Below, piece by piece: positions 683 through 38,018 of a DNA stretch of 64,000 bases. Made by a program: the position numbers and the translations under genes. A model generated the notes under the pieces. The model saw only the letters and a list, made by a program, of their open reading frames with translations. It was not told the origin of the DNA and made no database searches. Origin of the DNA: Candidatus Doudnabacteria bacterium. GTDB lineage: Bacteria > Patescibacteriota > Doudnabacteria > UBA920. Each line of letters starts with the position of its first letter. The first letter of the stretch is position 1. Location of the stretch: NCBI GenBank assembly GCA_963768175.1, contig CAVYGQ010000001.1, forward strand, positions 318,305 through 382,304, in the 5' to 3' direction.

Positions 683-758
683 GCCGACGTAGCTCAGTTG
701 GTAGAGCAATTCCATGGTAAGGAATAGGTCATCGGTTCAATTCCGATCGTCGGCTCCA
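683..758 (+). tRNA. tRNA-Thr (anticodon GGU)
   Basis: 76-nt cloverleaf. Acceptor GCCGACG/CGTCGGC, D-arm GCTCAGTTGGTAGAGC, anticodon stem ATTCC/GGAAT with loop ATGGTAA, T-arm ATCGGTTCAATTCCGAT, encoded CCA. Confidence 0.85.
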
Positions 759-3276: not shown

Positions 3277-3846
3277 TTGTCAACCAGCCAAAAAAAGTGT
3301 AAAATAAAACCAGAAAATCTTTTTATGCTATTAAAACAAAACAATTACGCTTTCATAGACAGCCAAAATTTAAACCTTGCCATCAGGGAACAAGGATGGT
3401 CTCTGGACTTTGCCCGTTTTCGGGTTTACTTAAAAGAAAAATACAGGGTTAGCAAAGCGTTTTTATTCATTGGTTTTGTGGAAGGCAATAATAGCTTATA
3501 TAAATCTCTTCAGGAAGCGGGTTTTGTTTGCATATTTAAACCAACCCTTAAGTACCAAGACGGTACCACTAAAGGCAACTGCGACGCGGAACTGGTTTTA
3601 CAAGCAATGGTTGAATATCAAAACTACGACAAGGCCGTAATTGTTACGGGAGACGGCGATTTCCACTGTCTGGCTAAGTACCTGCTAGAACAGGGAAAAT
3701 TGCAGGTGATATTAATTCCTAACCGTTTCAAATTTTCCGCACTTCTTAAATTTAAAATATTTAGACCGTATTTAAGATTTATGAACGATTTACAAAGCTT
3801 ATTGGCCTATAAAAAGAAAAGGCCCCATAAGGACGAAACCTCATAG
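3277..3846 (+). CDS. NYN-domain (LabA/PIN-like) protein
   Basis: AFIDSQNL...FLFIGFV...CDAELVLQAM...VIVTGDGDFHCL pattern matches the NYN/LabA-like nuclease fold. Confidence 0.5.
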   Translation: MSTSQKKCKIKPENLFMLLKQNNYAFIDSQNLNLAIREQGWSLDFARFRVYLKEKYRVSKAFLFIGFVEGNNSLYKSLQEAGFVCIFKPTLKYQDGTTKGNCDAELVLQAMVEYQNYDKAVIVTGDGDFHCLAKYLLEQGKLQVILIPNRFKFSALLKFKIFRPYLRFMNDLQSLLAYKKKRPHKDETS

Positions 3847-3914
3847 GGTGAACTTTTCCGTTGGTGATATTAATATTATATCAAATTAAGAGTGTTTGTC
3901 AACCCGTAAAATTG

Positions 3915-3946
3915 GGTGTAAAATAGCCTTAATAAGGCATTTTAAT
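3915..3946 (+). promoter_or_regulatory. Promoter/operator motif shared with the hsdR upstream region
   Basis: ggtgtaaaatagccttaataaggcattttaat is nearly identical to 6167..6200. It contains a -10-like TAAAAT and a small palindrome gcctta-taaggc. A TTGTCA is 17 nt upstream. Confidence 0.45.
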
Positions 3947-3967
3947 TAGTCAGTAAATCGTATTTTT

Positions 3968-4480
3968 ATGCCGGAAACAACTCCCGAACAAGAAGCTTAC
4001 GATAAATATGTAGTACAAGTCGGTAACACTCCCGTAGACCCAAAAGTGGCTAAACGGGAACAGGATGTTTTAGCCAATGCGCAAAGCAGGGGCTATGAAC
4101 CCTTTAGCCACGAAGACCCAACCAGAGATGATTATATAAACGGCTTACCGGAAGGCGAGTTTTATAAAACCGATATGACGGAACCGGAATTGGAACTGGC
4201 CATAAAGGACTTAACCGAAGCTAGGGAAACCCTAACTAAGTTTTTGGAACATTCAACCGCCCCCGAAGTTAAATATCCAAAAGAGACTACGTTATTTGAA
4301 TTTGAGGAAAACATAGAAAAATTTCCGCCTAATATTGCCAAAGCCTTTAGCGACGTAGTAAAGTATTTGGATCCCGAAAGCAATATGGCTCTGTTTGATT
4401 TGCCGGTTTTTATCAAAGAAAATTTGACAAGATACCAAATAATTTTGGAACATAACAAAAAAAAGCAATTAAATAAATAG
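3968..4480 (+). CDS. Hypothetical acidic protein
   Basis: ORF with a good start context and no recognisable motifs. Confidence 0.45.
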   Translation: MPETTPEQEAYDKYVVQVGNTPVDPKVAKREQDVLANAQSRGYEPFSHEDPTRDDYINGLPEGEFYKTDMTEPELELAIKDLTEARETLTKFLEHSTAPEVKYPKETTLFEFEENIEKFPPNIAKAFSDVVKYLDPESNMALFDLPVFIKENLTRYQIILEHNKKKQLNK

Positions 4481-4502
4481 AAATTATTTTTATAATTATA
4501 AT

Positions 4503-4763
4503 ATGGATCAAGAACATTCCCCCGAAAAAGAAAGACAAATGGAGCTGGAAAGTTTAAGGAGTTTGTTGGTTTTATGGAGCCAGCTGGTTGAGGAGGTAAC
4601 AGATTACGGAACCCCGGAGACAATAGGGCGGATGGAAAACATTGCGCAGGAAGTGGAAGAAGAACTTAAGAGGATGCAGGTATCAAAGAGGGAGATTGAG
4701 GCTGACCCGGATTTGGCTGAATTAATGGGGGAGTACAAGGCATATAATGAGGGCCAGGAATAA
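4503..4763 (+). CDS. Hypothetical small acidic protein
   Basis: 86-aa ORF, highly acidic and helical. Confidence 0.35.
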   Translation: MDQEHSPEKERQMELESLRSLLVLWSQLVEEVTDYGTPETIGRMENIAQEVEEELKRMQVSKREIEADPDLAELMGEYKAYNEGQE

Positions 4764-4783
4764 AGTTTGAAATTAAAACCAAA

Positions 4784-5446
4784 ATGCCAATCAAAAATAT
4801 ACATAAAATAGAACAGCCACGCGAAAAGTTAGAAAAGTACGGACCAGGCAGACTTTCCGATGCCGAACTTTTTGCGATTTTACTGCGTACTGGGCCAAAG
4901 GGGACCGGGGTTTTAGAATTATCTAAAAAGATTTTAAAACAATTTCCGGACAGCAAACTGGCTAATGCGAGTTTCAATGAACTAAAAGATATCCACGGGA
5001 TTGGCCCTGCCAAGGCCTGCGAAATTGTAGCGTGCTTCGAATTAGGTCGCCGAATATTGAAAGACAAAAAATCCATCTTAATTTTATCGCCGCGAGAAGT
5101 ATGGGAGCAGTGTAAAGATATCCGCGACAGCAAAAAAGAACATTTTGTTGTATTTTTTCTGGACACGCAAAATCAGGAAATTAAGCGCGAACTAATATCC
5201 ATCGGCACCCTAAACGCCAGCCTCATTCACCCGCGAGAAGTATTTGAGCCCGCGATTAAACATCTGGCATCCCATATAATTCTCGCCCACAACCACCCCA
5301 GCGGCAGCTTGGAGCCGTCCCAAGAAGACCTCACCGTCACCAAACGCCTAACCGACTCCGGCCGGCTCTTGGGCATAGAAGTACTTGACCACGTAATTGT
5401 CACCGGCAGGGGACACGCTAGTTTAAAAGAAAAGAACCTTCTCTAA
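4784..5446 (+). CDS. radC: RadC-family JAB-domain protein
   Basis: N-terminal LSDAELFAILLRTG and HhH GIGPAKA, with the JAB/MPN metalloprotease motif HNHPSG...S..D at the C-terminus. This is the canonical RadC/UPF0758 architecture. Confidence 0.75.
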   Translation: MPIKNIHKIEQPREKLEKYGPGRLSDAELFAILLRTGPKGTGVLELSKKILKQFPDSKLANASFNELKDIHGIGPAKACEIVACFELGRRILKDKKSILILSPREVWEQCKDIRDSKKEHFVVFFLDTQNQEIKRELISIGTLNASLIHPREVFEPAIKHLASHIILAHNHPSGSLEPSQEDLTVTKRLTDSGRLLGIEVLDHVIVTGRGHASLKEKNLL

Positions 5447-5538
5447 TGTCATTCCCGCAGAAGCGGGAATCTTGTCAAAGTTATCCACTTGACAGATGTG
5501 TACATGTACGTTATTATGTACATAAGGAGAATAAACAT

Positions 5539-5910
5539 ATGAACGGTAAAACAACTTTATCTATTACGGACGCGAGAAAGAAGATTTTTGATATTGCGGA
5601 AGATGTCCAGCGGCCGGGTAAATATTATACTTTAACCGAACAGGGGAAGCCCAAAGCCGTTGTTATATCCGCGGATGAGTTTGAAAGTTGGCAGGAAACT
5701 CTGGAAATAATGGAACAATTTCCGGATTTGCCCAAAGATATTGCCCAAGTTGACAAAGACATAAAATCCGGGGCATATAAGAACTATATAACTTTGGAAG
5801 AGCTTTTAGCCAAAGAGGGTTATGTATTAAGCGAAAAAGCAAAGAATAAATATGCCGTATCAAATAAGGCTGGAAAAAAAGGCTCAAAAAGAGCTGGAAA
5901 AACTTCCTGA
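5539..5910 (+). CDS. Type II antitoxin, Phd/YefM family
   Basis: ORF trimmed to the internal Met preceded by an aaggaga RBS. N-terminal ...ITDARKKIFDIAEDV...KPKAVVISADEFESWQETLEI resembles Phd/YefM. It sits immediately upstream of, and overlapping, a RelE/ParE-like gene. Confidence 0.55.
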   Translation: MNGKTTLSITDARKKIFDIAEDVQRPGKYYTLTEQGKPKAVVISADEFESWQETLEIMEQFPDLPKDIAQVDKDIKSGAYKNYITLEELLAKEGYVLSEKAKNKYAVSNKAGKKGSKRAGKTS

Positions 5911-6106
5911 AATATTTAGGCTCAAAGTATTGGCAATTTTGCCGGAAATAGCGGTAAATCCTTTTTTAGGCAAAAAGCTAAAAGGGGAGCTTGCAGGCTC
6001 CTATTCATACCGCGCTTGGCCTTATAGGATTACTTATAAAATATTTAAGCAAGTTTTGGTTGTAGTAGTGGTAAAAGTTGAGCATAGGGGAAGTGCTTAC
6101 AAATAA
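5852..6106 (+). CDS. Type II toxin, RelE/ParE family
   Basis: MPYQIRLEKKAQKELEKLP...YSYRAWPYRITYKI matches the RelE/ParE signature, including the conserved YRIIY-like block. Overlaps the antitoxin gene. Confidence 0.6.
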   Translation: MPYQIRLEKKAQKELEKLPEIFRLKVLAILPEIAVNPFLGKKLKGELAGSYSYRAWPYRITYKIFKQVLVVVVVKVEHRGSAYK

Positions 6107-6200: not shown

Positions 6201-8564
6201 ATGTCAAAGAGAGACTTATCAGAACAAGATATCTGTTCCAAGTTTATCCTTCCCGCAGTAACGTCTGCGGGTTGGGATTTGCAAACCCAAATCCGAGAAC
6301 AATATTCGTTTACGGCAGGTCGTATTATTGTGCGAGGAAAAACTATAGCCAGAGGCAAAAGAAAGCGTGTAGATTTTCTTCTTTATTACAAATCAAATTT
6401 TCCAATTGCCGTTATAGAAGCAAAAGAAAATAATTATTCCGTGGGTGCGGGTATACAACAGGCTTTGGGATATGCGGAATCGCTCGATGTACCTTTTGTT
6501 TATAGTTCCAATGGTGATGGATTTTTGGAACACGACAGATTATCAACCAGTGGTCCAAAAGAACAAGAAATTTCTCTGAATAGTTTCCCTTCCCCCAACG
6601 AGCTTTATAAAAGACTAAAGGATTCAAATAAATTATCCCCACAGGCCGAAACTATATTACAGCAAGATTATTTTCAGGAGTTAGGCGGCAAAGAGCCTCG
6701 TTATTTCCAACAGGTTGCTATCAACCGCGCAGTTAAAGCCATTGTTAACGGCCAAAAACGTCTTTTGCTTGTGATGGCAACGGGTACGGGTAAAACTTAT
6801 ACCGCATTTCAAATAATTTGGAGACTGTGGAAGTCTAAATTCAAAAAACGCATTCTTTTTTTGGTTGACAGAAATATTCTTGCGGACCAAGCCATTATGA
6901 ATGATTTTAAACATTTTGGCGATAAAATGGTTAAAATCCAGGATCGTGCAGTAGATAAATCCTATGAAATTTACCTCGCTCTTTACCAGGGCATAACCGG
7001 CAAGGAAGAAGAAAAAAATATTTTTAAACAATTTTCACCAGATTTTTTTGACCTTATTATAGTAGACGAATGTCACCGGGGAAGCGCAAGAGAAAACGCG
7101 CTTTGGCATGATGTTTTGGATTACTATAAAAATGCCACTCAAATAGGATTAACCGCTACCCCAAAAGAAACCAAAGACATTTCCACGCAAACCTATTTCG
7201 GCGAGCCCATTTACACCTATTCTTTGCGCCAAGGCATAGATGACGGATTCCTTGCGCCATATAAAGTTGTTCGTGTAACAATAGACCGGGACGTAGAAGG
7301 CTACCGGCCAGAGCAAGGGAAAATTGACAAGCATGGCAACGAAGTCCCGGACAGAATTTATAACCTGAAAGATTTTGACCGCAACCTTGTTATCGACGAG
7401 CGTACCAAACTTGTTGCCCATAAAATAACAGAGTATTTAAAGGCAACTGACAGAATGCATAAAACCATTGTTTTTTGTGTTGATATAGACCACGCTGAAC
7501 GAATGCGTCAGGCTTTAGTTAACGAAAATCCAGACGAAGTAGCTAAAAATCGCAGGTATGTAGTTAGAATTACCGGCGAAAACCCGGAAGCCCCAATTGA
7601 ACTGGACCATTTTATAGATCCGGAAAGCCCATATCCGGTAATAGCAACCACCTCAAAACTTATGACTACAGGTGTAGACGCTCAAACCTGCAAAATTATT
7701 GCTTTGGACACAAATATACAATCCATGACAGAATTTAAGCAAATCATCGGCCGGGGAACACGCGTGCGGGAAGATTATGGAAAGCTTTTTTTTACGATTT
7801 TAGATTTTAGGGCGGCAACCGAACTTTTTGCTGACCCAAATTTTGACGGCGATCCCGTGGTAATTTACGAACCAAAAAAAGGCGAAAGCATTGTACCGCC
7901 AGAAGAAACGACGCCGGCTGAATTAAATAAAGAGCAGACTGAAGAAGCTGGAAATTTGGATTGGAATCCATTAACAGACGGCGGTCAAATTACGCAGGGA
8001 CCAGTTCAAAAATATTATGTCAATAGTGTTCCGGTTAAAGTTATTAACGAACGTGTACAATACATTGGTGGAGACGGAAAACTTATTACTGAATCATTAA
8101 CAGATTTTACCAAAAAAAGCATCTTGCAGGAATATCGTTCTTTAAATGAGTTTTTAACCGCCTGGTCCCACGCGGAGAAGAAAGAGGCTATAATTAAAGA
8201 ATTGGAAGATCATGGCGTGCTGTTTGAAGCTCTAAAGGAAGAATCGGGAAAAGATTTAGATCCATTTGACTTGGTTTGCCATATTGCTTTTGGTAAACCG
8301 CCGCTCACCCGAAAGGAACGCGCTGAAAATGTAAAAAAGCGTGATTATTTTACAAAATACGAGGGCAAGGCCAGGGAAATAATAGACGCGCTTTTAGAAA
8401 AGTATGCCGATCAGGGCATAACCGCGATTGATGACATTGGTGATTTGGGGGTTGAGCCTTTTTCGGAATTCGGAACGCCTTATGAAATTGTAAATGGTAT
8501 TTTTGGCGGGAGAACACAATATATTAAAGTTATTAATAAAATTCAGGAAGCATTATACGTATAA
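6201..8564 (+). CDS. hsdR: Type I restriction enzyme R subunit (HsdR)
   Basis: N-terminal restriction-endonuclease domain (VDFLLYY...IAVIEAKE), SF2 helicase motifs I (LLLVMATGTGKT) and II (DECHRG), and a typical HsdR C-terminus. Confidence 0.85.
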   Translation: MSKRDLSEQDICSKFILPAVTSAGWDLQTQIREQYSFTAGRIIVRGKTIARGKRKRVDFLLYYKSNFPIAVIEAKENNYSVGAGIQQALGYAESLDVPFVYSSNGDGFLEHDRLSTSGPKEQEISLNSFPSPNELYKRLKDSNKLSPQAETILQQDYFQELGGKEPRYFQQVAINRAVKAIVNGQKRLLLVMATGTGKTYTAFQIIWRLWKSKFKKRILFLVDRNILADQAIMNDFKHFGDKMVKIQDRAVDKSYEIYLALYQGITGKEEEKNIFKQFSPDFFDLIIVDECHRGSARENALWHDVLDYYKNATQIGLTATPKETKDISTQTYFGEPIYTYSLRQGIDDGFLAPYKVVRVTIDRDVEGYRPEQGKIDKHGNEVPDRIYNLKDFDRNLVIDERTKLVAHKITEYLKATDRMHKTIVFCVDIDHAERMRQALVNENPDEVAKNRRYVVRITGENPEAPIELDHFIDPESPYPVIATTSKLMTTGVDAQTCKIIALDTNIQSMTEFKQIIGRGTRVREDYGKLFFTILDFRAATELFADPNFDGDPVVIYEPKKGESIVPPEETTPAELNKEQTEEAGNLDWNPLTDGGQITQGPVQKYYVNSVPVKVINERVQYIGGDGKLITESLTDFTKKSILQEYRSLNEFLTAWSHAEKKEAIIKELEDHGVLFEALKEESGKDLDPFDLVCHIAFGKPPLTRKERAENVKKRDYFTKYEGKAREIIDALLEKYADQGITAIDDIGDLGVEPFSEFGTPYEIVNGIFGGRTQYIKVINKIQEALYV

Positions 8565-8567
8565 AAT

Positions 8568-9995
8568 ATGTCTATTCAAACTGCGGTAAAATCCATTCAA
8601 GATATAATGCGTAAAGATCAAGGCGTGGACGGCGACGCTCAGCGTCTTTCGCAATTGGTGTGGATGTTATTTTTAAAAATTATTGACGACCAGGAAACGC
8701 AGTTTGAACTTGAAAACCCCAAATATAAATCGCCAATCCCTAAAATTTTGCGCTGGCGCGGATGGGCAGCAGACGCAGAAGGCTCCACAGGAGAGGAATT
8801 GTTGGATTTTATAAATAACCATCTTTTTCCAGGACTGAAAAATCTCAAAGTCCAACCTAGTGACAAATTGGGTCAGTTAATTAAAGAGGTGTTTATTGAT
8901 TCAAATAATTACATGAAGTCTGGTACTTTGATTCGCCAGGTCGTAAATAAAATTAATGAGGTTGATTTTAACAAAAAGGACGACCGCCATCATTTTAACG
9001 AAATCTACGAACATCTTTTAAAAGAACTGCAAGGTGCCGGAAATTACGGGGAATTTTATACGCCGCGGCCTTTAACTCGCTTTGTTGTAGAAATGGTTAA
9101 TCCGCAATTAGGAGAAACCGTGCTTGATCCTGCTTGTGGTACCGGCGGATTTTTAGTTAATACTTTGGAATATGTTGGCCATAATCAGGTTAAAAACAGA
9201 AAAGATCAAAGGCTGCTTGAAAGCACTATTCATGGTATGGAGTTAAAGCAATTGCCTTTTACTTTAGCCATTACCAATTTAATTTTGCATGGCGTCCAAA
9301 TGCCCGACCAAATTATCCGCGGCGACGCGCTTTCCAAGCCGTTGCGCGAGTATGGCCCCAAAGACAGGGTAGATGTTATTGTGGCCAATCCTCCTTTTGG
9401 CGGTTCAGTTAAAGACGGTACGGAAGGTAATTTTCCGCTTGAATTTCGTACTAAAGAAACTGCGGATTTATTTTTAGTGCTGTTTATGCATTTACTTAAA
9501 CCCACCGGGCGGGCGGGGATTGTTCTGCCAGATGGCACGCTGTTTGGCGAAGGCGTAAAAACTAAAATTAAAGAAAAATTGCTAGAAGAGTTTAATTTGC
9601 ATACTATTGTGCGTTTACCGCAAGGTGTTTTTAGCCCGTATGCCGGAGTAAACACTAATCTTTTGTTTTTTGAAAAGGGAAACCCGACCAAAGAAATTTG
9701 GTATTATGAACTTCCTTTGCCAGAGGGTATGAAGCAATATACCAAAGGCCGGCCAATTAGAATAGAAGAATTTGACCCGGTAAAAAAATGGTGGAAAAAT
9801 CGTAAAACGAACGGAAATTCCTGGAAAGTTTCCATAAAAGAAATTAAGGATAGAAATTATAACCTGGACTTTAAAAACCCGGCGAAAAAAGAAGATTTAG
9901 CGCATAAAGATCCAAAAGAAATTTTGGGAAATATTTTAGACTTAGAAAACAAGATAATAGGGATTTTAGATACGGTAAAAAAGGAGATTAAGTAA
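8568..9995 (+). CDS. hsdM: Type I restriction-modification methyltransferase subunit (HsdM, N6-adenine)
   Basis: HsdM N-terminal domain, SAM motif LDPACGTGGFL, and catalytic IVANPPFG motif. Confidence 0.85.
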   Translation: MSIQTAVKSIQDIMRKDQGVDGDAQRLSQLVWMLFLKIIDDQETQFELENPKYKSPIPKILRWRGWAADAEGSTGEELLDFINNHLFPGLKNLKVQPSDKLGQLIKEVFIDSNNYMKSGTLIRQVVNKINEVDFNKKDDRHHFNEIYEHLLKELQGAGNYGEFYTPRPLTRFVVEMVNPQLGETVLDPACGTGGFLVNTLEYVGHNQVKNRKDQRLLESTIHGMELKQLPFTLAITNLILHGVQMPDQIIRGDALSKPLREYGPKDRVDVIVANPPFGGSVKDGTEGNFPLEFRTKETADLFLVLFMHLLKPTGRAGIVLPDGTLFGEGVKTKIKEKLLEEFNLHTIVRLPQGVFSPYAGVNTNLLFFEKGNPTKEIWYYELPLPEGMKQYTKGRPIRIEEFDPVKKWWKNRKTNGNSWKVSIKEIKDRNYNLDFKNPAKKEDLAHKDPKEILGNILDLENKIIGILDTVKKEIK

Positions 9996-9996
9996 A

Positions 9997-10239
9997 ATGA
10001 AAAAGAATTGGGATAAATACGACGGGAAGACAAAATATGACGAGGGTGGTCGTGTTTGGGATGGGGTTATTACTTTTGTTCTAAATTTTTTTGCTATTAT
10101 TTTTGTTTTTATTGGATGGATCTTAAAACTTATTTGGAAATTTGTTAAAGATGTTTTACATAGCATGTATGGAAAGGTAGTGGCACTTATTGCGAGTGGC
10201 GTTTTGATATATTTTTTATCTCATTTTTTTAGAAAATAA
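9997..10239 (+). CDS. Small two-TM membrane protein embedded in the R-M operon
   Basis: 80 aa with two hydrophobic helices, between hsdM and the Shedu-like gene. Function unknown. Confidence 0.35.
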   Translation: MKKNWDKYDGKTKYDEGGRVWDGVITFVLNFFAIIFVFIGWILKLIWKFVKDVLHSMYGKVVALIASGVLIYFLSHFFRK

Positions 10240-10254
10240 TTTGGGAATGTTTAT

Positions 10255-11439
10255 TTGATACAAATTATGAATTTTGATTGTAATAATTTCAGAATGATTA
10301 CTTATAACGGATTAAGCCTTTATTTCGATAAAGGTTGTCGTTTTCATGAATACTTTCACCATAGGTTAAAAACAAAAAAATTTCGTTATTACAGAAATGT
10401 TCTCCAATTTTTAGCGGAAAATGTAGAGGCAAGATTATATTTTACTTTGAATGAGGAAGTCAAAAATTTTCAAAAGGTTGAAGGAGGCTTTTTGGTAAAT
10501 ATGGGTTCATATCAAGAGTTTTGTCGTACTATCGGAAGCAAAACAGGTGGAAGGTTAAAAGCTTTTCTCGGACAAAATATTAATTTAAAAGACCTTGATA
10601 TCACTGATATTGAACGAGATAATTTTATTATTGTTCATGCAACTGAGAAAAATATTTTAGAAGCAATAAAAAATTTAAGTGCCGAGGTTCAAATAAATAT
10701 TTTAAACTTTCTAAAGAACTTACACCCTACGGACCAGGGTGGAATAATACCGCCCCAAGAAATAAGTGGCGCCAAACTGATCGAAGCATTGGGAAAGTTT
10801 TTAACAGATAAAAACGTACAGCAGGCTTTTTTTTCAAATTTAACGAAAGTCCAAATTGATATTCTAAAATCACATATTTTATTTTTGAAAAACAATCTAG
10901 ATAAAAATGAGACCTTCATTCAAGACTGGATAGACGAAGATGGTGGTAAATTTAGGAAGCAGCGATGTCTTATATTTGGCCTAGAATATGTGGACCCAAA
11001 GAGGGAAGGGCAAGTGGCGGGAAAATTTTTTGATATTCTAGCCGAACATGATTTAGAACATCATGTTATTTTTGAATTAAAGTCGCCTAAGGACGATACA
11101 TTTAAAGTGGTTGAAAATCAAACACAAGCTGGCGGTATTTCTACTGAATATTCCTTATCTCCACAACTAAGTAGGGCGATACCTGAGGTGCTGGGTTATA
11201 GAAAAATGTATGAAAACGCGCAAGGTGAAGAATTACAAAAATTTGGCGTAAACGTCAAGAAAAAGATTTCAAAATGTGTTATAGTGGTTGGCACACAAAA
11301 AGATGATCTGGTTTGGAAAGAAAATTTTGAGCGCCTTCAGAATAGTTTAAATGGAATCGAATTATTAACATATAACCATCTTATTGACAGACTGCAAAAT
11401 ACCGTAAAAAATTTGGAAGAAAACACTTCAACCCAATGA
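10255..11439 (+). CDS. Shedu-like (DUF4263-like) PD-(D/E)xK nuclease-fold protein embedded between hsdM and hsdS
   Basis: The C-terminal half reads ETFIQDWID...LIFGLEYVD...FDILAEHD...HVIFELKSP...QLSRAIPEVLGY. It has a D...ExK nuclease motif plus a downstream Gln, in an arrangement resembling the DUF4263 domain of Shedu SduA. Called from memory of the family, not from a database search. Confidence 0.4.
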   Translation: MIQIMNFDCNNFRMITYNGLSLYFDKGCRFHEYFHHRLKTKKFRYYRNVLQFLAENVEARLYFTLNEEVKNFQKVEGGFLVNMGSYQEFCRTIGSKTGGRLKAFLGQNINLKDLDITDIERDNFIIVHATEKNILEAIKNLSAEVQINILNFLKNLHPTDQGGIIPPQEISGAKLIEALGKFLTDKNVQQAFFSNLTKVQIDILKSHILFLKNNLDKNETFIQDWIDEDGGKFRKQRCLIFGLEYVDPKREGQVAGKFFDILAEHDLEHHVIFELKSPKDDTFKVVENQTQAGGISTEYSLSPQLSRAIPEVLGYRKMYENAQGEELQKFGVNVKKKISKCVIVVGTQKDDLVWKENFERLQNSLNGIELLTYNHLIDRLQNTVKNLEENTSTQ

Positions 11440-12599
11440 ACAATTGGCCAACAAAAAAATTAGGAGAAATTTGCTCAATAAAAAAAGGAAAAAAACCTGT
11501 ACTGCGAAAAATTGCGATTGCGGGTGATTTGCCATATTTAATTGCAAAATTTTTAAGAGGGACTAAGGAGCCAGAATACGCATCGGCAGACGATAAGGGT
11601 TCGGTAGTGGTACAAGAAAATGAAACAATCATAATTTGTGACGGTTCAAATTCCGGTGATATTTTTACGGGTTTTAAAGGAATATTATCTTCGACAATGG
11701 GTAAAATTAACCATGAAGATAACATTGACACCCAGTACCTTAAAATATTTTTGGTCTCAAATTTTGATTTGTTTAATGGAGCTAAAAAAGGTGCAGCAAT
11801 TCCGCATCTTGATATAAAAGCTTTATACAATCTTAGAATCCCGCTCCCGCCTATTGTAGAACAACAAAAAATTGTAAAAAAAATTGAGGAACTTTTTGGG
11901 GAAATAGATAAGGCGCAAAAATTGCGCGAAGAGGCGCAAAAAGACGCCGCCGCCCTTGTCCCCGCCGCTTTGCATCATATTTTTTCGCGGGGAAAGAAAA
12001 AGGGTTGGAGAGAAATATCATTAGGTGATAAAAAGTATATCAAGATGACAAGTGGGGGGACTCCATCAAGAGGAAATAGATCTTATTATGACGGAAGTAT
12101 TGCCTGGCTAAAGTCTGGCGAATTAAATGATAATCAGAATATTCTGGATTCTGAAGAGCATATTACAGAAGATGCTATAAAAAATTCTAGCGCCAAGGTT
12201 TTCCCGAAAAATACTGTACTATTTGCTATGTACGGTGCTACTGCAGGAAAAACAGGTATTTTGGTTAAAGAAGCAGCTACTAATCAAGCCGTAGCTGGTT
12301 TAATTTGTTCTGAAGAAAGTATTTACTATAGATATGTATTTCAGTGTCTGATGAATATCAGAAACGATGTCATAGCTCAAGCGTGGGGTGGAGCACAACC
12401 AAATTTAAGCCAGACAATCATAAAAAAATTCAAAATTCCACTTCCGTCTCTTCCCGAGCAAAAAAAGATCGTGGAATATTTGGATTCGCTTTCGGAAAAG
12501 ACGAGGAACTTACAGAAGTTGCAGGAGAAGACGGCAGGGGATTTTAAGGCTTTAAAACAATCCATTCTTCACAAAGCCTTCGCGGGAGAATTAATCTAA
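11436..12599 (+). CDS. hsdS: Type I restriction-modification specificity subunit (HsdS)
   Basis: Two target-recognition domains separated by conserved coiled-coil repeats (LPEQKKIVEYLD...). Overlaps the upstream gene by 4 nt. Confidence 0.8.
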   Translation: MNNWPTKKLGEICSIKKGKKPVLRKIAIAGDLPYLIAKFLRGTKEPEYASADDKGSVVVQENETIIICDGSNSGDIFTGFKGILSSTMGKINHEDNIDTQYLKIFLVSNFDLFNGAKKGAAIPHLDIKALYNLRIPLPPIVEQQKIVKKIEELFGEIDKAQKLREEAQKDAAALVPAALHHIFSRGKKKGWREISLGDKKYIKMTSGGTPSRGNRSYYDGSIAWLKSGELNDNQNILDSEEHITEDAIKNSSAKVFPKNTVLFAMYGATAGKTGILVKEAATNQAVAGLICSEESIYYRYVFQCLMNIRNDVIAQAWGGAQPNLSQTIIKKFKIPLPSLPEQKKIVEYLDSLSEKTRNLQKLQEKTAGDFKALKQSILHKAFAGELI

Positions 12600-12691: not shown

Positions 12692-13141
12692 ATGCCTGTG
12701 AGTTTAGACGAAAAATTTGTCAGAAGAAAAATAATTGACTATTTGGGTAGGCACGGATGGGGACGAAATTTGCGTGAAAAAGCCACCGATGAACACGGAG
12801 TTGATATTTCAGTTTGGCATAATAATTATCAACGCCGATTTTTAGTTGAAGCCAAAGGAAACAGCAAAAATAAAATCAAAGCCCCACGTTCACGAATGGA
12901 AGTAAATTTTAATATTGCTTTAGGGCAAATATTAACAAGAATGAAGACAGAAAAGGCCGATAAGCACTATAAGTACACGCGTAAATATGGCGTTGGTTTT
13001 CCAGATAGCTACCAAGATATTATATTTCGCAGGTTACCCTGGGCAGTATGCGATGTCCTAAATTTATATGTTTTTTTGGTTGACAGTACTGGGAAAGTAA
13101 AAGAATATTGCTGGAGGGATTTAAAAAAATTACAAACGTGA
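12692..13141 (+). CDS. Small PD-(D/E)xK-like hypothetical protein
   Basis: GVDISVW...RRFLVEAKG gives a D-x(n)-E-x-K arrangement in a 149-aa protein immediately after hsdS. Weak. Confidence 0.35.
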   Translation: MPVSLDEKFVRRKIIDYLGRHGWGRNLREKATDEHGVDISVWHNNYQRRFLVEAKGNSKNKIKAPRSRMEVNFNIALGQILTRMKTEKADKHYKYTRKYGVGFPDSYQDIIFRRLPWAVCDVLNLYVFLVDSTGKVKEYCWRDLKKLQT

Positions 13142-27523: not shown

Positions 27524-27611
27524 TGGTGGGCAGGGAGGGATTCGAACCCCCGTAGCCAGTGAAGGCGTCGCGTCTACAGCGCGATGTAATTGACCGCTCT
27601 ACCACCTGCCC
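27524..27611 (-). tRNA. tRNA-Tyr (anticodon GUA), long variable arm
   Basis: Reverse complement gives acceptor GGGCAGG/CCTGCCC, anticodon stem-loop TCGCG-CTGTAGA-CGCGA, long variable arm, T-arm GGTTCGAATCC, and CCA. Followed 3' by hairpin gcaaaagccgcc...ggcggcttttgc. Confidence 0.8.
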
Positions 27612-36891: not shown

Positions 36892-36965
36892 TGGCAGGGG
36901 ATGAAGGAGTCGAACCTTCGCAATTGGTTTTGGAGACCAATGTACTACCGTTATACGAACCCCCC
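36892..36965 (-). tRNA. tRNA-Trp (anticodon CCA)
   Basis: Reverse complement gives anticodon stem-loop TTGGT-CTCCAAA-ACCAA, T-arm GAAGGTTCGACTCCTTC, and CCA end. The acceptor stem contains G-U pairs and the exact 5' boundary is uncertain by 1-2 nt. Confidence 0.65.
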
Positions 36966-37942: not shown

Positions 37943-38018
37943 TGGAGCCGATGGTCGGGCTTGAACCGACGACCTACGGTTTACAAAACCGTTGCTCTAC
38001 CAACTGAGCTACATCGGC
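37943..38018 (-). tRNA. tRNA-Thr (anticodon UGU)
   Basis: Reverse complement gives GCCGATGTAGCTCAGTTGGTAGAGCAACGGTTTTGTAAACCGTAGGTCGTCGGTTCAAGCCCGACCATCGGCTCCA. This is a perfect cloverleaf with anticodon loop TTTGTAA. Confidence 0.85.

What the first reader, a model, noticed from the sequence alone, without database searches (positions are those of the whole stretch)
8568..12599. Type I R-M operon with two extra genes wedged between hsdM and hsdS: a small 2-TM protein and a Shedu-like PD-(D/E)xK protein
The order is hsdR-hsdM-[80-aa membrane protein]-[394-aa protein]-hsdS, with 2-16-nt gaps or overlaps. This implies co-transcription. The 394-aa protein's C-terminal half (EtfIQDWI...LIFGLEY...FDILAEHD...IFELKSP...QLSRAIPEVLGY) looks like the DUF4263 nuclease domain of Shedu. 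Genes embedded in type I R-M operons are typically second-line defence (PrrC- or RloC-like anticodon nucleases, Abi). A Shedu-like nuclease with a tiny membrane partner in that slot would be an unusual arrangement. Immediately downstream is a small D...EAK nuclease-like protein (12692..13141).
Basis: partly seen in the sequence, partly recalled or inferred. Interest (0 to 1): 0.55.

Follow-up and report, generated by a model that had tools for sequence, protein, structure and literature searches.

The report
Shedu nuclease embedded in type I R-M operon
A complete type I restriction-modification operon carries a Shedu-family anti-phage nuclease gene between its methylase and specificity genes; this kind of embedding is already documented, and the small membrane-protein gene next to it is a one-off insertion rather than a conserved partner.

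Summary
The gene order hsdR-hsdM-[80 aa]-[394 aa]-hsdS is real. The 394-aa protein is a genuine Type 1 Shedu (SduA): Pfam PF14082 is above threshold, nine PADLOC SduA models hit, and the top seven Foldseek PDB hits are all B. cereus Shedu. D260, E274 and K276 align to Shedu motifs II/III and are invariant.

The arrangement is not unusual. Gu et al. counted 602 Shedu genes inside R-M systems. In this clade, 22 of 49 informative loci have sduA directly after hsdM.

sduA behaves as a reassorting cassette:
- DNA similarity to ~70%-identical relatives starts at its ATG and ends about 30 nt into hsdS.
- The flanking HsdM proteins in those relatives are only ~31% identical.
- About half of the clade is not next to hsdM or hsdS; some members sit by type III genes or housekeeping genes.

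The 80-aa two-TM ORF is probably a real gene. It has no homolog in a 5.8-billion-protein database or in 119 related loci. In the closest comparable operon a DUF3800 gene occupies its position. It is lineage-specific cargo in a variable slot, not a Shedu partner.

The N-terminal domain is clade-specific, with no PDB or viral structural match. The downstream 149-aa protein is a minimal PD-(D/E)xK-like protein that recurs at the ends of R-M operons.

Verdict: a new member of a known kind, of modest interest.

The parts
6201..8564 (+). hsdR, type I restriction subunit (787 aa)
   Evidence: Pfam ResIII 6e-43, EcoEI_R_C 1e-34, HSDR_N; PADLOC REase_I PDLC03049 at 1136 bits
8568..9995 (+). hsdM, type I methyltransferase (475 aa)
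   Evidence: Pfam N6_Mtase 2e-70 and HsdM_N 3e-12; PADLOC MTase_I 1.6e-204
9981..9986 (+). AAGGAG Shine-Dalgarno-like site, 10 nt upstream of the TM80 ATG and inside the 3' end of hsdM
   Evidence: Read directly from the sequence
9997..10239 (+). TM80: an orphan 80-aa ORF with two predicted transmembrane segments; lineage-specific cargo in the hsdM|sduA slot
   Evidence: Hydropathy. An ORF this long arose in 21 of 20,000 shuffles. Its only database match is itself. No homolog in 119 related loci. No Pfam, NCBIfam, PADLOC or PHROGs family.
10255..11439 (+). sduA, Type 1 Shedu nuclease (394 aa from TTG 10255; the likely true start is ATG 10267, giving 390 aa)
   Evidence: PF14082 at 39.2 bits, cutoff 27; PADLOC SduA, nine models; PDB 8ti8 by sequence and by fold, E=6e-7; about 159 homologs
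10276..10539 (+). Clade-specific N-terminal alpha/beta domain of SduA (residues ~8-95), the presumed sensor or regulatory domain
   Evidence: AF2 pLDDT ~83-90. No PDB match (best E 0.18) and no BFVD match (best E 0.27). Profile search found 42 representative clusters in 1.84 billion proteins, always N-terminal; 8 of the 10 hits scanned carry SduA_C.
10552..10974 (+). Helical linker region of SduA (residues ~100-240); contains invariant E219 (10909-10911), the candidate motif I residue
   Evidence: AF2 secondary structure; invariant columns; the motif I assignment is inferred
10975..11439 (+). DUF4263 PD-(D/E)xK nuclease domain. D260 (11032-11034) is motif II. E274 (11074-11076) and K276 (11080-11082) are motif III. 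E311 (11185-11187) sits at the motif IV position, which is Q in B. cereus.
   Evidence: Residue-level alignment to 8ti8, mapped onto the motifs named by Gu et al.; invariance across 31 sequences; codons checked
11436..12599 (+). hsdS, specificity subunit with two TRDs (387 aa); its start overlaps the sduA stop by 4 nt (ATGA)
   Evidence: Pfam Methylase_S 1e-42 in two stretches; PADLOC Specificity_I
11445..11467 (+). hsdS 'head' sequence TGGCCAACAAAAAAATTAGGAGA (encodes WPTKKLGE); marks the right-hand end of the DNA block shared with sduA relatives
   Evidence: The exact 20-mer is also at L001 4636 and L002 3168. Degenerate copies follow sduA in L001 and L041.
12692..13141 (+). 149-aa minimal PD-(D/E)xK-like protein. 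It is a neighbour and not part of the Shedu module.
   Evidence: Invariant D38/E53/K55/Q79. Weak NOV_C, Mrr_cat and PDDEXK_9 hits in 9, 9 and 4 of 20 members. Not found beside other sduA genes, except upstream of hsdM in L107.

Best explanation
The 394-aa gene is a Type 1 Shedu (SduA) anti-phage nuclease. It has a clade-specific N-terminal sensor domain, a helical linker and a C-terminal DUF4263 PD-(D/E)xK nuclease domain with its catalytic residues intact. It sits as a self-contained defence cassette at the hsdM|hsdS junction of a complete type I R-M operon, is probably co-transcribed with it, and is translationally coupled to hsdS through an ATGA overlap. By analogy with the characterised B. 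cereus and E. coli enzymes, it most likely forms a homotetramer whose N-terminal domains keep the nuclease off until an infection-associated nucleic-acid signal is sensed, after which it nicks or cleaves DNA. That would give a second, sequence-independent layer of defence behind methylation-dependent restriction. The fold, the motifs, the synteny and the cassette behaviour are shown here. Oligomeric state, trigger and anti-phage activity are inferred. The 80-aa two-TM ORF is probably a real but lineage-specific gene that landed in the same variable cargo slot. It is not a conserved Shedu partner.
For: Family membership. D260, E274 and K276 align to Shedu motifs II/III and are invariant in 31 relatives. 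The NTD-linker-nuclease architecture matches Type 1 Shedu. Autonomy and mobility: 26 of 49 informative loci in this N-domain clade have no hsdM or hsdS upstream. Members sit next to type III Mod/Res genes or beside housekeeping genes; C-terminal-only relatives lie in GmrSD/DUF2779 islands. Window SduA is 69-70% identical to L001, L002 and L043, whose HsdM is only 30-32% identical. HsdM of L071 is 65% identical, yet its SduA is only 40%. DNA similarity starts at the sduA ATG (10265-10267) and ends at 11459-11471. An hsdM-tail remnant and an hsdS-head remnant flank sduA in the non-R-M locus L041. TM80 is not a partner. Closely related sduA loci (L001, L043, 69-71% identical) have hsdM and sduA overlapping by 4 nt. 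The closest overall operon, L056 (HsdR 62%, HsdM 65-69%, SduA 68%), has a DUF3800 gene in that position. The literature already reports 602 Shedu genes within R-M systems and the general phenomenon of embedding.
Against: No experiment supports activity, trigger or oligomeric state. The motif IV position is E311 rather than the Q of B. cereus Shedu. E is shared by roughly half the clade, but its effect is unknown. The N-terminal domain has no structural relative, so the sensed signal cannot be inferred. E. coli SduA structures did not appear among the Foldseek hits, so the DNA-end-sensing model cannot simply be transferred. The strong bias to the hsdM|hsdS junction (22 of 49, against about 11% R-M embedding across all Shedu) leaves room for functional coupling to the R-M complex. 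Some loci in these counts are duplicate contigs, which inflates them slightly.
Confidence: 0.8

Rival explanations
1. PrrC-like guard. This Shedu clade is functionally coupled to the type I R-M complex. Its N-terminal domain docks on HsdM/HsdS and is released or activated when a phage anti-restriction protein disables the complex. Alternatively, it acts on the DNA ends that HsdR cleavage produces.
For: 22 of 49 informative loci in the clade have sduA directly after hsdM, and most have 4-nt overlaps on both sides. A different-N-terminus clade prefers the position after hsdS (9 of 37). The N-domain occurs only in Shedu proteins. PrrC is a precedent. E. coli SduA senses free DNA ends.
Against: 26 of 49 clade members have no adjacent hsdM or hsdS, and some sit beside housekeeping genes. 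The same sduA (~70% identity) is embedded next to HsdM proteins that are only ~31% identical, which argues against a co-evolving protein interface. No interaction data exist.
Confidence: 0.1
2. Two-gene membrane-linked Shedu. TM80 and SduA form a functional pair, analogous to the small upstream KELA partner of KELShedu. TM80 would anchor, sense or act as an effector at the membrane.
For: TM80 is probably a real gene (SD site; ORF length p~0.001). It lies immediately upstream of sduA. KELShedu shows that a small upstream partner can be essential. Other non-homologous predicted membrane ORFs occur next to sduA in L002/L053, L068, L093 and L071.
Against: TM80 has no homolog in 5.8 billion proteins or in 119 related loci. 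It lies outside the conserved sduA DNA block. Closely related sduA loci (L001, L043) have no gene there, and the closest overall operon (L056) has a DUF3800 gene there. The other membrane ORFs are unrelated to it and to each other, and they lie on the other side of sduA. T-rich DNA tends to give hydrophobic ORFs.
Confidence: 0.05
3. Inactive passenger. The sduA gene is a decaying hitchhiker kept only by linkage to the R-M operon, with no current defence function.
For: Motif IV is E rather than Q in this protein. GC content falls to 26-30% over TM80 and the 5' half of sduA, against ~40% in hsdM, which suggests foreign origin.
Against: The ORF is full length. D260, E274 and K276 and 38 invariant columns are conserved across relatives down to 38% identity. 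The start and stop overlaps are maintained in many loci. The AF2 model is confident in both folded domains.
Confidence: 0.05

Closest known systems
Type 1 (type I) Shedu SduA: B. cereus Shedu (PDB 8TI8/8TI9; Gu et al.) and E. coli SduA (Loeff et al.)
   Same: C-terminal DUF4263 PD-(D/E)xK nuclease with D/ExK motifs. N-terminal domain, helical linker and nuclease architecture. Length of ~390 aa, against a type I mean of 386 aa. Best fold match TM 0.68 on the nuclease domain.
   Different: Only ~20% identity to B. cereus Shedu. The N-terminal domain has no structural relative, so it matches neither of the solved or predicted sensor folds in the PDB. Motif IV is E rather than Q. The clade is mostly from Patescibacteria/CPR metagenome bins.
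Shedu genes encoded within R-M systems (Gu et al.: 602 of 5,499 Shedu with genomic context, types I-IV)
   Same: Exactly this kind of arrangement: a single-gene Shedu inside an R-M operon, proposed to complement restriction.
   Different: This clade is embedded much more often (22 of 49 directly after hsdM), at a defined junction and with overlapping start and stop codons. That paper's supplementary tables were not available here, so I could not check whether this clade was in their set.
PrrC/EcoprrI and RloC (anticodon nucleases embedded in type I R-M operons)
   Same: A second-line effector gene embedded in a type I R-M operon and co-expressed with it.
   Different: Here there is no ABC-ATPase or anticodon-nuclease domain, and the effector is a DNA nuclease family. 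PrrC is found almost exclusively embedded, whereas about half of this clade has no adjacent hsdM or hsdS.
TgvAB in V. cholerae VPI-2, and the 'guilt-by-embedding' systems of Payne et al. 2024
   Same: Independent defence genes interrupt a functional type I R-M operon. The slot carries varied cargo, including PADLOC candidate families: PDC-M04A/DUF3800 and PDC-M59A were found in the same slot in relatives.
   Different: A different effector family (GmrSD-like against Shedu). TgvAB needs two proteins, whereas here a single gene is conserved.
KELShedu (KELA + KELB) two-component Shedu
   Same: A small ORF sits immediately upstream of a DUF4263 nuclease gene.
   Different: KELA is a soluble 12.6-kDa beta-sheet dsDNA-binding protein that complexes with KELB. 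TM80 is a predicted two-TM protein, has no homologs and is absent from all relatives.

Membership tests
Shedu (SduA, DUF4263/PF14082) | DUF4263 / SduA_C domain detected above the curated threshold | tested here: met
   PF14082 E=1e-9, 39.2 bits against cutoff 27, residues 226-377. Nine PADLOC SduA models, best 7.7e-9.
Shedu (SduA, DUF4263/PF14082) | PD-(D/E)xK catalytic motifs II (D) and III (ExK) present | tested here: met
   D260, E274 and K276 align to the B. cereus D/E/K residues in the 8ti8 alignment. They are invariant in 31 relatives.
Shedu (SduA, DUF4263/PF14082) | Motif I (E) and motif IV (Q) of the Shedu active site | tested here: inconclusive
   Invariant E219 is a candidate for motif I but lies outside the aligned region. 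The motif IV position is E311 here, and Q in about half of the clade and in B. cereus.
Shedu (SduA, DUF4263/PF14082) | Fold similarity to a solved Shedu nuclease domain | tested here: met
   Foldseek ranks 1-7 are all 8ti9/8ti8, E 6e-7 to 3e-5, TM 0.68 normalised to the target. The model has pLDDT 79 overall and above 90 in the nuclease core.
Shedu (SduA, DUF4263/PF14082) | Type 1 architecture: a long N-terminal regulatory region precedes the C-terminal nuclease | tested here: met
   N-domain 8-95, helical linker ~100-240, nuclease 241-394; definitions.
Shedu (SduA, DUF4263/PF14082) | Homotetramer assembly and anti-phage activity | not testable with these tools
   Needs multimer modelling, biochemistry or phage assays.
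Type I restriction-modification system | HsdR (helicase plus nuclease), HsdM (N6-MTase) and HsdS (two TRDs) all present and full length in one operon | tested here: met
PrrC/RloC-type R-M-embedded anticodon nuclease | ABC-ATPase N-domain plus a C-terminal anticodon nuclease domain | tested here: not met
   The only Pfam family on the 394-aa protein is SduA_C. There are no PADLOC PrrC or Abi hits.
Two-component Shedu (KELShedu-like) | A conserved small partner gene co-occurs with the nuclease gene | tested here: not met
   TM80 has no homolog in the 5.8-billion-protein database or in 119 sduA loci. The slot is empty or holds unrelated genes.

The most novel reading that the evidence does not exclude
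This CPR-enriched Shedu clade, defined by an N-terminal domain with no structural relative, may be specifically adapted to type I R-M operons. It could be a guard that reads the state of the HsdM/HsdS complex, or the DNA ends made by HsdR. On this reading the hsdM|hsdS junction acts as a recombination-driven cargo slot bounded by the conserved hsdS head, where sduA and sporadic extra genes (TM80, DUF3800, other small membrane ORFs) are exchanged between unrelated R-M backbones.
Probability: 0.12. Interest if true: 0.6.

Novelty: new member of a known kind. Interest (0 to 1): 0.25.

Why it matters
It gives a clean, well-delimited example of a Shedu cassette integrated at the hsdM|hsdS junction in a small, probably Patescibacteria/CPR genome, a group whose defence repertoire is little studied. 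It also shows that the same sduA gene reassorts among very different type I backbones. That is useful context for "guilt-by-embedding" approaches and for choosing Shedu sensor domains to characterise. It does not reveal a new mechanism. The feature that would have been novel, a membrane partner for Shedu, does not hold up.

Tried and rejected
- **TM80 homolog searches.** The 5.8-billion-protein search returned only the query itself. tblastn and phmmer against 119 sduA loci and the rest of the window found nothing. Pfam, NCBIfam, PADLOC and PHROGs gave no credible family.
- **78-aa ORF upstream of the closest relative (L041).** I considered it as a TM80 analogue. It is an HsdM C-terminal remnant (blastp E=3e-6) and not a membrane protein.
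- **Identifying the N-terminal domain by fold.** There was no significant PDB or BFVD match. By profile search it occurs only in Shedu proteins.
- **Mapping the clade to Gu et al.'s N1-N59 / Type 1A-1X classes.** Their supplementary tables are not held, and the Mol Cell version is not held either.
- **The 149-aa protein as a Shedu or R-M partner.** It is not found beside other sduA genes. It recurs after type III Mod/Res and MazE/PIN operons instead. A profile search against PDB sequences found nothing.
- **tRNA-Thr (683-758) as an island integration site.** Housekeeping-like genes follow it, so I did not pursue this.
- **The exact hsdS-head 23-mer as a special recombination site.** It is the general HsdS TRD-start motif (W-x-x-K-K-L-G-E), and codon bias could explain the DNA identity. 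I therefore treat it only as a boundary marker.
- **The split hsdM in the Logan assembly (L040).** It is a single G deletion outside any long homopolymer, most likely an assembly or sequencing variant rather than phase variation.


Full report
**Observation**

The ORF map matches the finding. All genes are on the + strand:
- hsdR 6201-8564
- hsdM 8568-9995
- 80-aa ORF 9997-10239
- 394-aa ORF 10255-11439
- hsdS 11436-12599
- 149-aa ORF 12692-13141

The spacings are 3 nt, 1 nt, 15 nt and a 4-nt overlap. The third becomes 27 nt if sduA starts at ATG 10267, where its relatives start. Pfam and PADLOC confirm a complete type I system: HsdR has HSDR_N, ResIII and EcoEI_R_C; HsdM has HsdM_N and N6_Mtase; HsdS has two Methylase_S stretches. 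The only + strand terminator-like site inside the operon is a weak one within hsdM. Co-transcription is therefore plausible but inferred.

**The 394-aa protein is a Shedu nuclease**

- PF14082 (SduA_C) scores 39.2 bits against a gathering cutoff of 27, E=1e-9, over residues 226-377.
- Nine PADLOC SduA models hit.
- phmmer against PDB sequences finds only B. cereus Shedu, 8ti8/8ti9.
- An AlphaFold2 model built from 31 family members has mean pLDDT 79, with the nuclease core above 90. Its seven best Foldseek matches in the PDB are all B. cereus Shedu chains, E 6e-7 to 3e-5, TM 0.68 on the nuclease domain.
- In the residue-level alignment, D260, E274 and K276 fall on the motif II and III residues that Gu et al. 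define. They are invariant in the family alignment.
- The motif IV position is E311 here. It is Q in B. cereus and in about half of the clade.
- Invariant E219 is a candidate for motif I. That assignment is inferred.

The architecture is an N-terminal alpha/beta domain (~8-95), a helical linker (~100-240) and the nuclease domain. This is the "Type 1/type I" Shedu layout.

**The N-terminal domain**

Modelled alone, residues 1-105 give pLDDT 83 and pTM 0.75. The model has no significant structural neighbour in the PDB (best E 0.18) or in the viral BFVD library (best E 0.27).

A profile of this domain, searched against 1.84 billion representative proteins, found only 42 clusters. The match is always at the N-terminus. 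Of the 10 hits I scanned, 8 carry SduA_C; a 398-aa and a 183-aa protein had no Pfam hit. So it is a Shedu-specific sensor or regulatory domain whose ligand cannot be inferred from known structures.

**Is the arrangement unusual?**

No. Gu et al. (bioRxiv 10.1101/2023.08.10.552793) report 602 of 5,499 Shedu genes encoded within type I-IV R-M systems and 87 within BREX. Payne et al. 2024 and the TgvAB study describe embedding in type I R-M operons as a general phenomenon, with PrrC as the classic case.

I fetched 39 genome loci and 80 metagenome loci that encode relatives.
- Among members that share the N-terminal domain and have at least 1.5 kb of upstream sequence, 22 of 49 have sduA directly downstream of hsdM. 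Where hsdS is visible, it follows. One locus has sduA after hsdS, and 26 have no hsdM or hsdS upstream.
- Relatives that share only the nuclease half prefer the position after hsdS: 9 after hsdS, 4 after hsdM and 24 with neither.
- A batch Pfam scan of the ±2 neighbouring genes ranks Methylase_S, N6_Mtase/HsdM_N, ResIII and HSDR_N at the top.
- Other contexts are type III Mod/Res (L003, L014), a GmrSD/DUF2779 island (L024, a C-terminal-only relative) and housekeeping neighbours such as Obg, MFS and inositol monophosphatase genes.

Some loci are duplicate contigs, so these counts are approximate.

**sduA reassorts independently of the R-M backbone**

| Locus | SduA identity to window | HsdM identity to window |
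|---|---|---|
| L001, L002, L043 | 69-71% | 30-32% |
| L071 | 40% | 65% |
| L030 | ~43%, C-terminal region only (203 aa); sits after hsdS | 58% (HsdR 57%) |
| L056 | 68% | 65-69% (HsdR 62%) |

At the DNA level, similarity to L043, L041, L001 and L002 begins at window 10265-10267, which is the sduA ATG. It ends at 11459-11471, about 30 nt into hsdS.

The right-hand border is the conserved hsdS "head" WPTKKLGE, at 11445-11467. Degenerate copies of that head follow sduA in L001, where the real hsdS starts 200 nt later. The same is seen in L041, which has lost the R-M genes altogether but keeps a 78-aa remnant of the HsdM C-terminus upstream of sduA. The head is the general HsdS TRD-start motif, so I use it only as a boundary marker.

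In most embedded loci sduA overlaps hsdM by 4 nt, and it overlaps hsdS or lies within 15 nt of it.

**The 80-aa ORF (TM80)**

It is probably a real gene:
- An AAGGAG site lies 10 nt upstream of its ATG.
- It has two hydrophobic segments.
- An ORF of 80 codons or more arose in only 21 of 20,000 shuffles of the 271-nt spacer.

It is also an orphan:
- Its only match among 5.8 billion proteins is itself.
- No related ORF exists in any of the 119 sduA loci or elsewhere in the window.
- No family library recognises it.
- It lies outside the conserved sduA DNA block.

L056 is the only locus in which the R-M genes and sduA have diverged from the window's by similar amounts. There the same position holds a 252-aa DUF3800 gene, and a further 202-aa gene lies between sduA and hsdS. 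L071 also has a DUF3800 gene there, which matches PADLOC candidate PDC-M04A. L118 has an AntA-like gene, PDC-M59A.

Several loci carry other predicted membrane ORFs downstream of sduA: L002/L053 (145 aa), L068 (224 aa), L093 (101 aa) and L071 (189 aa). They are unrelated to TM80 and to each other.

The hsdM-hsdS interval is therefore a variable cargo slot. TM80 is one sporadic occupant, not a Shedu partner. The recurrence of hydrophobic ORFs is noted. It may simply reflect T-rich DNA.

**Mechanism**

Shown here: the fold, the catalytic residues, the operon integration and the independence of the cassette.

Inferred from the characterised enzymes:
- a homotetramer held inactive by its N-terminal and linker domains;
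- activation by an infection-associated nucleic-acid cue;
- DNA nicking or cleavage as a restriction-independent second layer of defence.

A PrrC-like coupling to the R-M complex is not excluded. It is disfavoured because about half of the clade has no adjacent hsdM or hsdS, and because the HsdM neighbours of near-identical sduA genes are highly divergent.

**Downstream 149-aa protein**

It belongs to a small family of 20 clusters with invariant D38, E53, K55 and Q79. Sub-threshold NOV_C, Mrr_cat and PDDEXK_9 hits occur in 9, 9 and 4 of 20 members. This fits a minimal PD-(D/E)xK protein. It is not linked to sduA. It recurs at the 3' end of type III Mod/Res operons and after a MazE/PIN pair.

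**Verdict**

The "unusual arrangement" and "membrane partner" readings are not supported. This is a new member of a known kind: a Type 1 Shedu embedded in a type I R-M operon. Two details add modest interest: a clade-specific sensor domain, and clear evidence that the cassette reassorts among R-M backbones.

Noticed in passing
window 12692-13141: The 149-aa protein belongs to a 20-cluster family with invariant D38/E53/K55/Q79 and weak NOV_C, Mrr_cat and PDDEXK_9 similarity. Homologs sit at the 3' end of type III Mod/Res operons (L047, L048), after a MazE/PIN pair (L045) and upstream of hsdM (L107). It may be an uncharacterised accessory nuclease of defence islands.
   Followed up: partly
window ~8780 (hsdM); L040 ~819: An independent Logan assembly of the same locus (99.94% identical) has a single G deletion that splits hsdM into 81-aa and 410-aa ORFs. 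The deletion is not in a long homopolymer, so it is probably an assembly or sequencing variant rather than phase variation.
   Followed up: partly
window 3277-6106: Just upstream of the R-M operon lie an NYN-domain RNase (3277-3846), RadC (4784-5446) and a Phd/YefM-ParE toxin-antitoxin pair (5446-5910, 5852-6106). In relatives L001 and L043 an NYN gene (plus WYL in L043) is embedded between hsdR and hsdM, and RadC precedes hsdR in L043, so these genes travel with this kind of operon.
   Followed up: partly
L056 3054-3812 and 5182-5790; L071 933-1739; L118 2357-3244: The hsdM|hsdS slot in related operons carries other cargo: DUF3800 proteins (the L071 one matches PADLOC candidate PDC-M04A), an AntA-like PDC-M59A protein, and an unannotated 202-aa protein with a D..ExK-like motif.
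   Followed up: partly
L002 2722-3159, L068 2942-3616, L093 5126-5431, L071 3055-3624, L041 4936-5196: Several unrelated small ORFs with predicted transmembrane segments lie between sduA and hsdS in other embedded loci. Two of them (L068, L041) begin with the HsdS head motif WPIKKLG. It is unclear whether these are real membrane proteins or ORFs created by insertions into T-rich DNA.
   Followed up: partly
L018 3996-8600: A 1534-aa ORF in a Saprospiraceae bin joins a full isoleucyl-tRNA synthetase in frame to a C-terminal SduA_C domain. This is probably read-through or an assembly artefact. In L043 an IleRS gene lies a few genes downstream of the R-M/Shedu operon.
   Followed up: no
window 9800-10700: GC content drops to 26-30% over TM80 and the 5' half of sduA, against ~40% in hsdM and ~35-39% in hsdS. 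This fits a foreign origin for the inserted genes.
   Followed up: partly
window 683-758, 27524-27611, 36892-36965, 37943-38018: Four tRNA genes (Thr-GGT, Tyr-GTA, Trp-CCA, Thr-TGT). No other Rfam family reached its gathering score in the window.
   Followed up: no
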